From positions 118,551 through 182,550 of IMG/VR virus record IMGVR_UViG_3300023184_000028: a DNA stretch of 64,000 bases; one strand, written 5' to 3'. The notes below the pieces were generated by a model. The model was not told the DNA's origin. It was given only the letters and a program-made list of their open reading frames with translations, and made no database searches. The DNA comes from a virus (Duplodnaviria; Heunggongvirae; Uroviricota; Caudoviricetes). The translations under genes were made by a program, and so were the position numbers. Positions 29,017 through 30,064 of this stretch are shown one piece after another; the first letter of the stretch is position 1; each line of letters starts with the position of its first letter.

Positions 29017-29493
29017 ATGACAACAACTACCACCACCCCAACAACAACAGTAATTAACCTTACAACTGGCACAATGGCTGGCGACGTATTCTACGGAACG
29101 TACAATACAATCGTTAAAGGTAAATCTCAAAAAGTAATGGTTTCCAACCACCTTAAAGAAAACAAGGAGTATGAGTTCCGTATTGCTAACAAATGTCAGG
29201 CAGGATTCATCAATATCTCTGATTGGACTACAACACCGAAAGAAATGATTTCAGGTTTTGGTAAAAACACTTTGGTTAATATCCAAGTGAAACATACCTA
29301 CGATAACGGAAAAATTACTTGGATGAATGTATTCACAACCAAAGGTGGCAAATGGTATTCTATTGATAAAGGATTTTTGGATGTGTTGACTGTGGGTGAT
29401 ATGAGACAATCATTTCCTGATATGTGTGATATGGAATTGTGGGGTAGAATGGGTGCTAATACTTGGGCGGACAAGGCGTTCGTTCAGAACTAA
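29017..29493 (+). CDS. Hypothetical protein (158 aa; poly-Thr N-terminus MTTTTTPTTT)
   Basis: ATG 23 nt downstream of the second copy of the consensus promoter. The upstream part of the ORF-track ORF (28828-29016) contains the promoter, so it is taken as non-coding. Confidence 0.6.
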   Translation: MTTTTTTPTTTVINLTTGTMAGDVFYGTYNTIVKGKSQKVMVSNHLKENKEYEFRIANKCQAGFINISDWTTTPKEMISGFGKNTLVNIQVKHTYDNGKITWMNVFTTKGGKWYSIDKGFLDVLTVGDMRQSFPDMCDMELWGRMGANTWADKAFVQN

Positions 29494-29499
29494 AAATAT

Positions 29500-29605
29500 A
29501 GTCAGGTGGCGGAATAGAGCAGACGCTAAAATAACGAGTGGACAGCGTGCCATTGGGGAAGAGCCATAAAAGTTACGCATACAGGTTCAAATCCTGTCCT
29601 GACTA
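29500..29605 (+). ncRNA. tRNA-like structured RNA: perfect 7-bp acceptor stem plus canonical T-arm (ACAGG-TTCAAAT-CCTGT), no anticodon arm, 106 nt
   Basis: AGTCAGG (29500-06) pairs with CCTGACT (29598-604). GGTTCAAATCC T-loop consensus. Local GC-rich island. No 5-bp/7-nt anticodon stem-loop can be formed in the 74-nt interior. Confidence 0.4.
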
Positions 29606-29620
29606 CAAAAAATAAAAGAT

Positions 29621-29710
29621 ATGAAGATAGTATTAATAATAATCGGAGTGATGTTAATTGTTAAATTAGCCTTTTTTATGGCTGATGTTCACGGAAAAAG
29701 TCCTAAATAA
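29621..29710 (+). CDS. Small hydrophobic peptide (29 aa, MKIVLIIIGVMLIVKLAFFMADVHGKSPK), type I toxin-like / small membrane peptide
   Basis: ATG 15 nt after the tRNA-like element; paralog of the 29968 peptide. Confidence 0.4.
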   Translation: MKIVLIIIGVMLIVKLAFFMADVHGKSPK

Positions 29711-29717
29711 AAAAATT

Positions 29718-29819
29718 ATGAGAAATTTTGATAAAGAATTGAAAGATTGGAAATCTGATATGATAGGGTTTTTATTGGCAGGTTTCATCTTGGGAGTTTG
29801 TTTTGGAATATTAATATAG
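29718..29819 (+). CDS. Small membrane peptide (33 aa, MRNFDKELKDWKSDMIGFLLAGFILGVCFGILI)
   Basis: Its stop codon TAG overlaps the first 2 nt of the second tRNA-like element. Confidence 0.35.
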   Translation: MRNFDKELKDWKSDMIGFLLAGFILGVCFGILI

Positions 29820-29951
29820 TCAGGTGGGCGTAATGAGGGAGTGGTTCCCGAATCCCCAAGATTGGCGGTTACCGACACTAGGGTGGCCGTTGCGTCGTAA
29901 GGTTGTCTAATCCGTCTTGAACGGTATCCGGTTCGAGTCCGACCCTGGCTA
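29818..29951 (+). ncRNA. Second tRNA-like structured RNA (same 5' AGTCAGGTGG, GGTTCGAGTCC T-loop, acceptor 3' strand CCTGGCT), 134 nt, no anticodon arm
   Basis: Shares ends with the element at 29500. 7-bp acceptor pairing with one G-U. T-stem only 3 bp. Interior differs and contains a second GGTTCCCGAATCC segment. Confidence 0.3.
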
Positions 29952-29967
29952 CAAAAAATAAAAAATT

Positions 29968-30063
29968 ATGAATATAGTATTAATCATTTTAGTTGTTATG
30001 ATTTTTTTAACTTTTTTTGGGGTTAAAATAACAATACACGACAAAGACAAAAAAAACATATAA
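29968..30063 (+). CDS. Small hydrophobic peptide (31 aa, MNIVLIILVVMIFLTFFGVKITIHDKDKKNI)
   Basis: Paralog of the 29621 peptide, in the same position relative to the tRNA-like element (spacer CAAAAAATAAAA). Confidence 0.4.
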   Translation: MNIVLIILVVMIFLTFFGVKITIHDKDKKNI

Positions 30064-30064
30064 T

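What the first reader, a model, noticed from the sequence alone, without database searches (positions are those of the whole stretch)
29495..30064. GC-rich island of two tRNA-like RNAs interleaved with three small hydrophobic peptide genes
Seen directly: two elements (29500-29605, 106 nt; 29818-29951, 134 nt) start with AGTCAGGTGG and end with a canonical T-arm (GGTTCAAATCC / GGTTCGAGTCC) and a 3' strand that pairs 7/7 with the 5' end. They are too long for tRNAs, and I could form no anticodon stem-loop. So they are tRNA-like scaffolds with a replaced interior, in the way a tmRNA tRNA-like domain or the T4 stable species RNAs are built. Each is followed after the spacer CAAAAAATAAAA by a paralogous ~30-aa single-TM peptide (MKIVLIIIGVMLIV.. 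/ MNIVLIILVVMIFL..). A third peptide gene (MRNFDK...GILI) ends with a TAG that overlaps the first 2 nt of the second element. Small hydrophobic peptides coupled to structured RNAs resemble type I toxin/RNA pairs. Phage tRNA clusters with small ORFs are known, but this tRNA-like-without-anticodon pairing with a duplicated peptide is not a described arrangement to my knowledge. The region is the only GC-rich patch in ~64 kb.
Basis: partly seen in the sequence, partly recalled or inferred. Interest (0 to 1): 0.8.

Follow-up and report, generated by a model that had tools for sequence, protein, structure and literature searches.

The report
Phage tRNA-shaped RNAs carrying swapped inserts
The two elements are real, conserved, non-decoding tRNA-shaped RNAs from a very large and apparently undescribed family in freshwater phages, in which one constant tRNA body carries hundreds of different structured inserts; the small peptide genes beside them are unrelated neighbours.

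Summary
Both elements exist exactly as described (29500-29605 and 29818-29951). ARAGORN calls neither a tRNA. The Rfam tRNA model matches only E1, and only by skipping a 45-nt insert where the anticodon arm should be.

They are not decayed tRNAs. The same chassis (AGUCAGG acceptor, tRNA-Leu-type D arm, T arm, A73, C74) recurs in uncultured phage contigs. One capped scan gave 142 distinct elements with 117 unrelated interiors of about 20-130 nt.

E1's interior occurs in 77 distinct elements and always inside the chassis. E2's class occurs in at least 12 full-length copies. Both show compensatory base changes, including a long-range pair inside E1's insert.

The peptide link fails. Homologues of the three peptides sit elsewhere relative to such RNAs in related phages, and no antisense pairing exists.

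Best reading: these are co-transcribed RNAs excised by the tRNA-processing machinery. The chassis provides maturation and stability, and possibly leucylation. The insert is the class-specific effector. Its target is unknown.

I found no description of the family in Rfam 15, GenBank phages or the searchable literature.

The parts
29500..29605 (+). E1: a non-decoding tRNA-like RNA. Acceptor 29500-29506 pairs with 29598-29604. tRNA-Leu-type D arm 29509-29526. Insert ('cargo') 29527-29580. T arm 29581-29597. Discriminator A at 29605, followed by C at 29606.
   Evidence: Sequence. Rfam tRNA model 31.5 bits with a 45-nt insert replacing the anticodon arm. 68-sequence alignment: 99.4% of cells paired, 12 pairs with compensatory changes.
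29545..29578 (+). Core of the E1 cargo. Stem GCGUG (29545-29549) pairs with UACGC (29574-29578) and encloses the hairpin UUGG-GGAAGAG-CCAU. There is also a long-range covarying pair between 29535 (alignment column 38) and 29563 (column 66).
   Evidence: Pair 49:80 is CG in 52 and UA in 14 sequences. Pair 38:66 is UA in 32, CG in 27 and UG in 3 sequences. These two are the top-ranked mutual-information pairs after one pair of gapped D-loop columns.
29621..29710 (+). pep1, a 29-aa hydrophobic peptide gene (MKIVLIIIGVMLIV...). It is a neighbouring gene and not part of the RNA system.
   Evidence: ORF. A 27/29-identical homologue in L001:5055-5141 follows a protein-coding ORF rather than a scaffold RNA.
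29718..29819 (+). pep2, a 33-aa peptide gene (MRNFDKELKDW...GILI). Its TAG overlaps E2 by 2 nt.
   Evidence: ORF. A 31/33-identical homologue in L373:10832-10930 lies 12 nt upstream of an E1 copy, so the overlap with E2 is not conserved.
29818..29951 (+). E2: a second, more elaborate tRNA-like RNA. Acceptor 29818-29824 pairs with 29944-29950. Remodelled D domain 29826-29855. Long variable hairpin arm 29860-29896. Invariant segment AAGGUUGUCUAAUCCGUCUUGAACGGUA including the variable-arm hairpin 29912-29924. T arm 29927-29943. Discriminator A at 29951.
   Evidence: 12-sequence alignment: 89.8% of cells paired, 16 pairs with compensatory changes, and the long arm exists as three unrelated sequences that all form hairpins.
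29968..30063 (+). pep3, a 31-aa hydrophobic peptide gene (MNIVLIILVVMIFL...). Its leader and N-terminus look like a local duplicate of pep1's.
   Evidence: A pep3-like ORF in L109:2587-2667 precedes a different scaffold RNA rather than following one.
29044..29493 (+). Conserved upstream ORF of unknown function. Its 3' end marks a tRNA/ncRNA insertion hot spot in related phages.
   Evidence: 81 IMG/VR relatives encode it, of which the best 80 were fetched. Downstream of it, relatives carry ordinary tRNA arrays, other scaffold RNAs or nothing. It has no Pfam or PHROG match.

Best explanation
E1 and E2 are two different members of a large phage-borne family of non-decoding tRNA-shaped RNAs built on a common chassis.

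Shown:
- The chassis consists of the acceptor AGUCAGG/CCUGACU, U8, a tRNA-Leu-type D arm GGCGGAAU(U)GGUAGACGC, U48, the T arm ACAGG-UUCGAAU-CCUGU, A73 and C74.
- The anticodon and variable arms are replaced by a class-specific structured insert, which is conserved within a class and unrelated between classes.
- In the window the RNAs sit 6 nt after the preceding stop codon and 15-16 nt before the next start codon. The strand carries no terminator, and promoter-like matches are near chance.

Inferred:
- The RNAs are co-transcribed with their neighbours and cut out by the tRNA-maturation enzymes: RNase P at the 5' end, then 3' trimming and CCA completion after the encoded C74.
- The chassis acts as a biogenesis and stability module. 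For E1-type elements it keeps the whole bacterial LeuRS identity set, so it may even be leucylated.
- The insert is the effector. It is a compact folded domain that binds a protein, RNA or small molecule during infection, plausibly in host takeover or counter-defence, given the extreme diversity and the location in an accessory-gene island.
- Excision also cuts the polycistronic mRNA into units with short A-rich leaders.

The three small peptide genes are ordinary neighbouring accessory genes.
For: Family:
- An exact 16-mer scan of IMG/VR hit its 120-stretch limit. It yielded 142 distinct complete elements of 70-270 nt that fall into 117 interior-similarity clusters.
- In loci not chosen by acceptor sequence, 79 of 429 distinct tRNA-shaped hits start with AGTCAGG, and 57 of those 79 are at least 95 nt long. 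Ordinary acceptor sequences never exceed 91 nt.

Not decoders:
- ARAGORN of 142, with scattered anticodons that include 2- and 4-base 'anticodons'. Intron mode gives arbitrary calls.

Selection on the inserts:
- The E1 insert motif occurs in 44 viral and 99 metagenome stretches, always inside a scaffold although the flanks differ.
- E1 alignment: 99.4% of cells paired, 12 compensatory pairs, and a long-range Watson-Crick covariation at 38:66.
- E2 alignment: 16 compensatory pairs.
- A third class shows the covarying stem CAUACAAC/GUUGUAUG.
- Inserts fold better than dinucleotide shuffles: mean z = -0.6, n = 130, p about 1e-9.

Chassis core:
- In 68 E1 elements chosen by insert only, U8, A14, A15, U48, U54, U55 and A58 are invariant, and the D loop carries a GG dinucleotide in all but a handful of rows, the window's copy among them.
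- Position 73 is A in 126 of 143 elements and position 74 is C in 139 of 143, the same trailer as genuine tRNAs of these phages.
- LeuRS needs A73 and the D/T tertiary core but not the anticodon arm (PMC2377443).

Co-transcription:
- Spacers of 6, 15, 7, -2, 16 and 1 nt, and no + strand terminator.

Modularity:
- At the same site after the conserved ORF, the window has E1 while L001-L003 have another insert in the same chassis.
Against: - There is no expression, end-mapping or aminoacylation data, so processing and stability are inferred from tRNA likeness only.
- No partner was found. No protein family is shared by E1 or E2 neighbourhoods. No antisense target in the window exceeds chance. No Rfam family matches any insert examined.
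- The acceptor and T-stem sequences are conserved far more than tRNA processing alone would require. This hints at a sequence-specific reader or at concerted evolution that the model does not explain.
- The window's own copies are slightly off consensus. E1's D loop (UAGAGCAGA) lacks the GG dinucleotide. E2's T stem has a C.A mismatch where 10 of 12 relatives have U-A.
- E2's D domain is remodelled, so the LeuRS argument does not apply to it.
- Acceptor pairing was a selection criterion in my extractions, so acceptor covariation counts are inflated.
Confidence: 0.55

Rival explanations
1. mRNA punctuation only. The tRNA-shaped elements are cis-acting processing signals. RNase P and 3' nuclease cuts separate a polycistronic early transcript and set the 5' ends of downstream small ORFs. 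The interior only has to avoid being a functional anticodon arm.
For: The window has very tight spacing and no terminators. Of 141 elements, 72 are followed within 40 nt by an ORF of at least 20 aa, with a sharp mode at 13-16 nt and an A-rich leader.
Against: Insert sequences are conserved nearly base for base across dozens of unrelated flanks, and they have internal compensatory and long-range covariation. Many E1 and E2 copies are followed by other RNAs or by no ORF. About half of all elements have no closely following ORF.
Confidence: 0.15
2. Decoys for tRNA-binding host factors. The chassis mimics a tRNA so as to occupy tRNA-targeting defence nucleases or tRNA enzymes. The insert replaces the cleavable anticodon loop with a non-substrate or high-affinity bait, and it diversifies in an arms race.
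For: The inserts are hypervariable on a constant tRNA body. The elements lie in accessory-gene and tRNA islands. Some members keep an anticodon-like hairpin with an abnormal 8-nt loop and a covarying variable arm (L073:5685, L179:4669). Phage tRNAs are known to counter tRNA-cleaving defences (titles of PMC11464382 and PMC11555353).
Against: Inserts of 50-130 nt with their own multi-helix folds are more elaborate than a decoy loop needs. No defence system or nuclease was identified. Nothing here tests binding.
Confidence: 0.15
3. DNA-level recombination cassettes. The constant 5' and 3' halves (about 26 nt each) serve mainly as homology arms that shuffle inserts and adjacent small genes between phages. 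In this view the RNA shape is a relic of the tRNA genes from which they arose.
For: Different inserts occupy the same chassis at the same genomic site in close relatives. The near absence of sequence change in the acceptor and T stems across unrelated inserts is consistent with concerted evolution. Peptide genes and RNAs reassort.
Against: Where chassis stems do change, they change compensatorily, for example AGAUAGG/CCUAUCU with AUUGG/CCAAU and AGUGGUA/UGCCGCU. The tertiary-core nucleotides are invariant. Both argue for selection on the RNA fold. Recombination is better seen as the mode of spread than as the function.
Confidence: 0.1
4. Type I toxin-antitoxin-like modules. Each structured RNA controls the adjacent small hydrophobic peptide.
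For: Two hydrophobic ~30-aa ORFs start 15-16 nt after the RNAs with near-identical leaders.
Against: The RNAs and ORFs are on the same strand, with no complementarity beyond shuffles. Peptide homologues are unlinked from these RNAs in relatives. Only 13 of the 72 ORFs that closely follow such an element (out of 141 elements examined) look membrane-like.
Confidence: 0.03
5. Decayed pseudo-tRNAs, or true tRNAs interrupted by introns that are spliced out.
For: E1 scores just above the Rfam tRNA gathering threshold. ARAGORN in intron mode 'finds' tRNAs in 112 of 142 elements.
Against: There is strong conservation with covariation. The intron calls place arbitrary anticodons at arbitrary positions. 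No residual anticodon stem can be assembled from the E1 or E2 flanks of any contiguous deletion (sequence). The inserts are far too small for group I introns, and bacteria have no known enzyme that splices other tRNA introns (established knowledge).
Confidence: 0.03

Closest known systems
Phage T4 stable RNAs species 1 and 2 (rnaC, rnaD)
   Same: Both are phage-encoded small stable RNAs that sit in the tRNA gene region. Both end in a tRNA-like T arm plus acceptor strand, are not decoders, and have no known function (annotation and sequence).
   Different: There is no sequence similarity. T4 rnaC has only the T arm and acceptor minihelix at its 3' end, with an internal 5' strand. The family here has a complete acceptor, D arm and T arm with the insert in the anticodon position, and it comes in more than 100 insert classes on one chassis.
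tmRNA tRNA-like domain
   Same: The topology is the same. The 5' and 3' ends form the acceptor stem next to a T arm, and the anticodon arm is replaced by other RNA.
   Different: ARAGORN detects no tmRNA and Rfam gives no tmRNA hit. There is no G3.U70 alanine identity pair, no tag reading frame and no pseudoknot series. The D arm is a full tRNA-Leu-type arm.
Bacterial Y RNA-like YrlA (RF02553)
   Same: It is a modular ncRNA with a tRNA-mimicking domain plus a second functional module, and it is also found in phages. Sub-threshold YrlA-like RNAs lie beside a scaffold element in L119.
   Different: YrlA is circularly permuted relative to a tRNA: the T arm comes before the D arm, and the ends form the Ro-binding stem. 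E1 and E2 have the normal tRNA order and give no YrlA hit.
Murine gammaherpesvirus 68 TMERs (tRNA-miRNA-encoding RNAs)
   Same: A viral tRNA-like module is used as a processing handle for an attached functional RNA (own knowledge; title of PMC4337559).
   Different: TMER cargo hairpins are appended 3' of the tRNA-like part and released by RNase Z in a eukaryotic host. Here the cargo is embedded inside the tRNA body of bacterial viruses.
Engineered 'tRNA scaffold' for recombinant RNA expression (Ponchon and Dardel approach)
   Same: The design is the same. The anticodon arm of a tRNA is replaced by an RNA of interest so that the chimera is processed and stabilised like a tRNA in bacteria (own knowledge; the method is used in PMC3753655 and PMC3401473).
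   Different: That scaffold is man-made. The family here would be a natural counterpart, and its processing and stability are not yet shown.

Membership tests
Canonical tRNA (RF00005) | 7-bp acceptor stem, T arm with a UUCRANU loop, and a discriminator base | tested here: met
   E1 pairs 7/7 and E2 7/7 with one U.G. T loops are UUCAAAU and UUCGAGU. Both helices covary in homologues.
Canonical tRNA (RF00005) | Anticodon arm: 5-bp stem with a 7-nt loop carrying U33 and an anticodon | tested here: not met
   ARAGORN makes no call in the window. The Rfam alignment replaces the 17-nt arm of E1 with 45 nt, and E2 gives no hit. Across the family the 'anticodons' are arbitrary.
Canonical tRNA (RF00005) | D arm with G18G19 that pairs with the T loop | tested here: inconclusive
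   The E1 class has the tRNA-Leu D arm, with a GG dinucleotide in the D loop of nearly all 68 aligned copies. The window copy reads UAGAGCAGA, without GG. E2 has a remodelled D domain with a GG-containing inner hairpin.
tRNA-Leu identity set for bacterial LeuRS | A73, U8-A14, A15-U48, G18-U55 and G19-C56; the anticodon arm is dispensable | tested here: inconclusive
   These nucleotides are present and invariant or nearly so in the E1 class, and position 73 is A in 126 of 143 elements. The requirement is taken from PMC2377443. Charging itself cannot be tested here. The window E1 lacks GG, and E2 lacks the Leu-type D arm.
tmRNA | tRNA-like domain plus an internal tag-peptide reading frame, pseudoknots and a G3.U70 pair | tested here: not met
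   ARAGORN tmRNA search is negative, and Rfam gives no tmRNA hit at E up to 10. Position 3:70 is U-A in E1 and U.G in E2.
Type I toxin-antitoxin | An antisense or otherwise base-pairing RNA that targets the toxin mRNA, with conserved linkage of the RNA to a toxic peptide | tested here: not met
   The genes are on the same strand, and duplex energies are within the shuffle range. The linkage is not conserved. Peptide toxicity was not tested.
YrlA / Y RNA-like (RF02553) | Permuted tRNA-like domain and a Ro60-binding stem formed by the RNA ends, with an rsr gene nearby | tested here: not met
   There is no YrlA hit in the window at E up to 0.5, and E1/E2 have the normal tRNA order. No search for a Ro60 gene was made in the window.
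T4 species 1/2 stable RNAs | Sequence or structure homology to rnaC/rnaD | tested here: not met
   The rnaC/rnaD sequences were fetched. They share only a generic T arm and no alignable chassis. No Rfam family exists for them.
AGUCAGG-chassis scaffold RNA family (defined here) | Acceptor AGUCAGG or a compensated variant, U8, T arm ACAGG/CCUGU-type, A73-C74, and a non-anticodon insert between the D and T arms | tested here: met
   E1 has all of these features. E2 shares the acceptor, T arm, A73 and C74 but has its own D domain.

The most novel reading that the evidence does not exclude
Freshwater Bacteroidota phages use a natural 'tRNA display' system. A single tRNA-Leu-derived chassis is recognised by the host tRNA maturation machinery, and perhaps by LeuRS and EF-Tu. 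It presents hundreds of interchangeable aptamer-like RNA domains, which act as RNA-based host-takeover or anti-defence effectors and are exchanged between phages by recombination within the constant chassis.
Probability: 0.3. Interest if true: 0.9.

Novelty: new variant of a known kind. Interest (0 to 1): 0.78.

Why it matters
Phage tRNA-like stable RNAs have been known since T4 species 1 and 2, and their function is still unknown. This family offers a far richer data set for that question. It has one chassis, more than 100 insert classes, abundant environmental copies and clear covariation.

If the chassis-plus-cargo model holds, nature anticipated the engineered tRNA scaffold. Phages would then carry a large, unexplored repertoire of small structured effector RNAs. 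tRNA finders either miss these or miscall them as odd tRNAs, and Rfam does not cover them.

There is also a practical point for annotation. Elements that ARAGORN reports as 'tRNA-Glu(ctc)' or 'tRNA-???' in related contigs belong to this non-decoding family.

Tried and rejected
- ARAGORN and Rfam at gathering thresholds on the window gave nothing.
- GenBank phage BLAST with the 1-kb region, with E2 and with the 3' chassis found no member, only generic T-arm hits in ordinary tRNAs.
- The single genome-contig scan with the 16-mer was largely wasted. Most of the 120 hits are chance matches inside coding DNA of unrelated bacteria, as expected for a 16-mer in about 600 Gb. Only a few MAG contigs carry real elements: a Flavobacterium contig, a Sediminibacterium contig and some probably mis-binned phage contigs.
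- The search for antisense targets of E1/E2 in the window found a longest match of 11 nt, which equals the shuffle level.
- The search for a conserved neighbouring protein found none. The only 'family' enriched near E1 is a spurious reverse-strand ORF across the RNA itself.
- One idea was that some inserts mimic CRISPR repeats. It rested on a faint likeness, recalled from memory, between a shared motif GAACTGCTTGTAAAAGT (L133, L185, L147) and Cas13b repeats. It was noted but not pursued and is probably chance.
- Eight literature searches found no description of the family. One of them (freshwater-1/-2) returned only irrelevant papers.
- A 2023 catalogue of about 10,000 candidate viral structured RNAs mentions generic 'tRNA-like' candidates but not this architecture.
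- My first helix guess for the inner E1 hairpin was mis-registered by 2 columns and was corrected.
- The RNAalifold consensus for E2 mis-paired the T arm and was replaced by a manual structure.
Full report
**1. Observation**

The window is an AT-rich genome segment (31.6% G+C) with nearly all long ORFs on the + strand. It encodes a primase-like protein, a RuvC-like resolvase, an SbcC-like ATPase, a sigma factor, a DnaJ and a weak, sub-threshold SprB-repeat match. It is therefore a large phage, probably of Bacteroidota.

ARAGORN finds no tRNA or tmRNA in the whole window. Rfam at gathering thresholds finds nothing. With permissive filters the tRNA model matches E1 end to end at 31.5 bits (gathering score 29), but only by replacing the 17-nt anticodon arm with 45 nt. 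E2 matches nothing.

E2 is the most G+C-rich 120-nt stretch of the 64 kb (0.57). E1 (0.48) is not unique in that respect.

The packing is extremely tight:
- stop codon of the upstream ORF, then 6 nt, then E1;
- 15 nt, then pep1;
- 7 nt, then pep2, which overlaps E2 by 2 nt;
- after E2, 16 nt, then pep3;
- 1 nt, then the next ORF.

There is no + strand terminator-like site, and promoter-like matches are near chance.

**2. The two elements belong to a very large family**

The ORF upstream of E1 has 81 relatives in IMG/VR, of which the best 80 were fetched. Downstream of it, relatives carry ordinary tRNA arrays, nothing, or elements that start with the same AGTCAGGTGG.

An exact scan of IMG/VR for AGTCAGGTGGCGGAAT stopped at its 120-stretch limit. 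Extracting from that 5' end to a T loop followed by a 7-nt complementary strand gave 142 distinct complete elements of 70-270 nt (median 106). All share the acceptor, a tRNA-Leu-type D arm and the T arm ACAGG-UUCGAAU-CCUGU. Their interiors are mostly unalignable. Clustering the interiors gives 117 clusters.

In loci that were not selected by acceptor sequence, 79 of 429 distinct tRNA-shaped hits start with AGTCAGG, and 57 of those 79 are at least 95 nt long. Close variants such as AGTCAAG and GGTCAGG also occur. The ordinary tRNA acceptor sequences never exceed 91 nt.

ARAGORN calls only 30 of the 142, with scattered anticodons that include 2- and 4-base ones. Its intron mode 'rescues' 112 by placing arbitrary introns. 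These are not decoding tRNAs.

No member occurs in the GenBank phage collection. In the genome collection the 16-mer hits are mostly chance matches in coding DNA. The real elements lie on a few MAG contigs, including a Flavobacterium contig and a Sediminibacterium contig. The family is thus carried by uncultured phages. Most sources look like freshwater samples, and the hosts are probably Bacteroidota.

**3. E1 class**

The insert motif GTGGAYAGYGTGCCATTGGGG occurs in 44 viral and 99 metagenome stretches. Every hit with enough flanking sequence lies inside a tRNA-like scaffold, although the flanks are unrelated. Some copies have D-loop insertions or other acceptor and T-stem sequences. This gives 77 distinct full elements.

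In a 68-sequence alignment, 99.4% of cells are paired and 12 pairs show compensatory changes. Slid-register controls give 26-50% pairing. Acceptor pairing was a selection criterion, so only the following count as independent evidence:
- the T stem, with 4 of 5 pairs doubly changed;
- the insert stem at alignment columns 48-52/77-81, where pair 49:80 is CG in 52 and UA in 14 sequences;
- a long-range pair 38:66, which is UA in 32, CG in 27 and UG in 3 sequences.

After one pair of gapped D-loop columns, 49:80 and 38:66 are the top mutual-information pairs. The rest of the insert is almost invariant in sequence. The insert therefore behaves like a compact folded domain under purifying selection.

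Chassis nucleotides U8, A14, A15, U48, U54, U55 and A58 are invariant in this insert-selected set, and the D loop carries a GG dinucleotide in all but a handful of rows. The window copy, like L373 and L498, has the variant D loop UAGAGCAGA without GG.

**4. E2 class**

E2's 3' segment AATCCGTCTTGAACGGTA occurs in 37 viral stretches. Twelve full-length E2-type RNAs (133-134 nt), one 105-nt variant (L067) and three short variants (96-97 nt) were recovered.

On a manually derived structure, 89.8% of cells pair and 16 pairs have compensatory changes, against 24-55% pairing in slid registers. The features are:
- Acceptor variants AGUCAAG/CUUGACU, AGCUAGG/CCUAGCU and AAUCAAG/CUUGAUU.
- A 3-bp D-like stem (pair 11:36 is GU, AU or GC) that encloses an inner hairpin.
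- A 13-bp arm that exists as three unrelated sequences, all of which form hairpins.
- A 28-nt segment, AAGGUUGUCUAAUCCGUCUUGAACGGUA, that is invariant.

The window copy has a C.A mismatch in the T stem where 10 of 12 relatives have U-A.

The same 18-nt hairpin serves as a long variable arm in otherwise ordinary 90-nt phage tRNAs with Asn (GUU) or Gln (UUG) anticodon loops. The short E2 variants retain CAGUUAAAU where those tRNAs have CUGUUAA. E2 therefore probably descends from such a tRNA (inference).

**5. The peptides**

All three ORFs are plausible small genes, because homologues with conservative substitutions exist:
- pep1: 27/29 identical in L001.
- pep2: 31/33 identical in L373.
- pep3-like: 14/27 identical in L109.

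Their positions relative to scaffold RNAs differ in each case. Other E1 and E2 copies are mostly not followed by such peptides.

Family-wide, 72 of 141 elements are followed within 40 nt by an ORF of at least 20 aa, with a mode of 15 nt, but only 13 of those ORFs are membrane-like. RNA-mRNA duplex energies are within the shuffle range.

The pep1 and pep3 leaders and N-termini are near-identical at the DNA level, which is consistent with a local duplication that includes the 3' end of the chassis. The toxin/RNA reading is therefore rejected.

**6. How it most likely works**

Shown: the architecture, the conservation, the covariation, the modular exchange of inserts at one genomic site (window compared with L001-L003), and the tRNA-gene-like trailer. 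Position 73 is A in 126 of 143 elements and position 74 is C in 139 of 143, as in genuine tRNAs of these phages.

Inferred: the RNAs are excised from a polycistronic transcript by RNase P and 3' processing, and completed by the CCA-adding enzyme. The chassis then gives a stable L-shaped body.

The E1-type chassis keeps the full bacterial LeuRS identity set: A73, U8-A14, A15-U48, G18-U55 and G19-C56. Deleting the whole anticodon stem-loop of a tRNA-Leu costs only 2.5-fold in affinity (PMC2377443). Leucylation is therefore possible but untested.

The insert is the specific effector, and its target is unknown. I found no antisense target, no adjacent partner gene and no Rfam match. Inserts are modestly but significantly more stable than shuffles.

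A by-product of excision is that the mRNA is cut into units with ~15-nt A-rich leaders. For pep2, RNase P cleavage at E2 position +1 would remove its stop codon. That overlap is not conserved in L373.

**7. Comparison with known systems**

The closest known systems are the T4 species 1 and 2 RNAs, the tmRNA tRNA-like domain, YrlA, the MHV68 TMERs and the engineered tRNA scaffold. None of these shares the defining combination: a full tRNA body in normal order, the insert in the anticodon position, and one chassis carrying very many insert classes.

Eight searches of the literature library and Rfam 15 gave no description of this family. Subscription-only papers could not be searched, so prior description cannot be excluded.

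**8. Verdict**

E1 and E2 are genuine, selected, non-decoding tRNA-like RNAs. Their main interest is that they expose a large modular family.

My rough confidence in each step:
- about 0.9 that they are members of this family and are not decoders or decayed tRNAs;
- about 0.7 that they are matured by the tRNA pathway;
- about 0.5 that the insert is a trans-acting effector.

I cannot say what the insert acts on.

Noticed in passing
L119:1477-1884 (-): A GOLLD RNA (RF02032, 298.8 bits, gathering score 150) lies in a related phage contig next to tRNAs and a scaffold element (L119:3291-3363).
   Followed up: no
L119:2951-3052 (-) and L119:2752-2864 (-): Two sub-threshold YrlA-like (Y RNA-like) matches, 34.6 and 25.3 bits against a gathering score of 69, with the permuted order of T arm before D arm. 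They lie beside ordinary tRNAs.
   Followed up: partly
L101:4124-4186 (+): A freshwater-1 RNA motif (RF02979) scores 70.1 bits, just under its gathering score of 72, inside a phage tRNA island that also holds three scaffold elements.
   Followed up: no
L325:186-275, L345:2002-2091(-), L357:795-884, L337:4035-4124(-), L347:1882-1971: Otherwise ordinary 90-nt phage tRNAs with Asn (GUU) or Gln (UUG) anticodon loops carry an invariant 18-nt long variable arm, AAUCCGUCUUGAACGGUA. Class I tRNAs normally have no such arm. The same hairpin is in E2.
   Followed up: partly
L355, L356, L330, L336, L348 (around the AATCCGTCTTGAACGGTA match): A third conserved RNA context for the same hairpin: GCCUGGGAAG..ACAAGAGAACUGGG.GUUGCAAUCCGUCUUGAACGGUAAACGCAGGGGAGU. 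It lies directly after another tRNA-like scaffold that has the acceptor AUCUCGG/CCGAGAU.
   Followed up: no
L338, L327, L354, L333, L340, L328, L326, L067 (the ~55 nt immediately 5' of the E2-type RNA): A conserved element, CCCCCACUCCCAUAUGGCAGCCAGUCCAUUAACCUGGUGAAGUGGGGUAAAU, abuts E2-type RNAs in eight contigs. It is absent from the window, where pep2 occupies that place.
   Followed up: no
L184, L334, L351 (between the E1 copy and the short E2 copy); also 3' of E2-type in L324: A conserved ~70-nt spacer RNA, CUGACAAUAAUAACUCUGGGGUCAGGGUUUUGUUGCACCGAAAGGUGGUGUUUUCAACGGUUCGAGUCCG, ends in a T-arm-like hairpin that runs straight into the next element's AGUCAGG.
   Followed up: no
L112:484, L172:4212, L201:3737, and L402, L409, L436, L446: Some chassis copies carry an extra hairpin inserted in the D loop (GGCGGAAU[insert]GGUAGACGC). 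The chassis therefore tolerates cargo at a second site.
   Followed up: no
L365:4130, L367:2090, L390:1364 (153 nt); L378:4962(-) (109 nt); L325:1375 and L358:2953 (247 nt): There are other long tRNA-shaped elements with different acceptor sequences (GGCUCUA.., ACACAAG.., GAGAGUG..). The insert-bearing design may not be limited to the AGUCAGG chassis.
   Followed up: no
window 29044-29493 and its 80 fetched relatives (L001-L080): The 3' end of this conserved ORF of unknown function is a hot spot. Downstream of it, relatives carry arrays of up to about 20 tRNAs, a few tRNAs, scaffold RNAs or nothing.
   Followed up: partly
L005:4652-4746, L012:4652-4746, L082:7399-7493, L073:5685-5782: ARAGORN labels some family members as 'tRNA-Glu (ctc)' (95 nt) or 'tRNA-??? 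(gtac)'. Such calls in phage annotations are probably mis-assigned members of this non-decoding family.
   Followed up: partly
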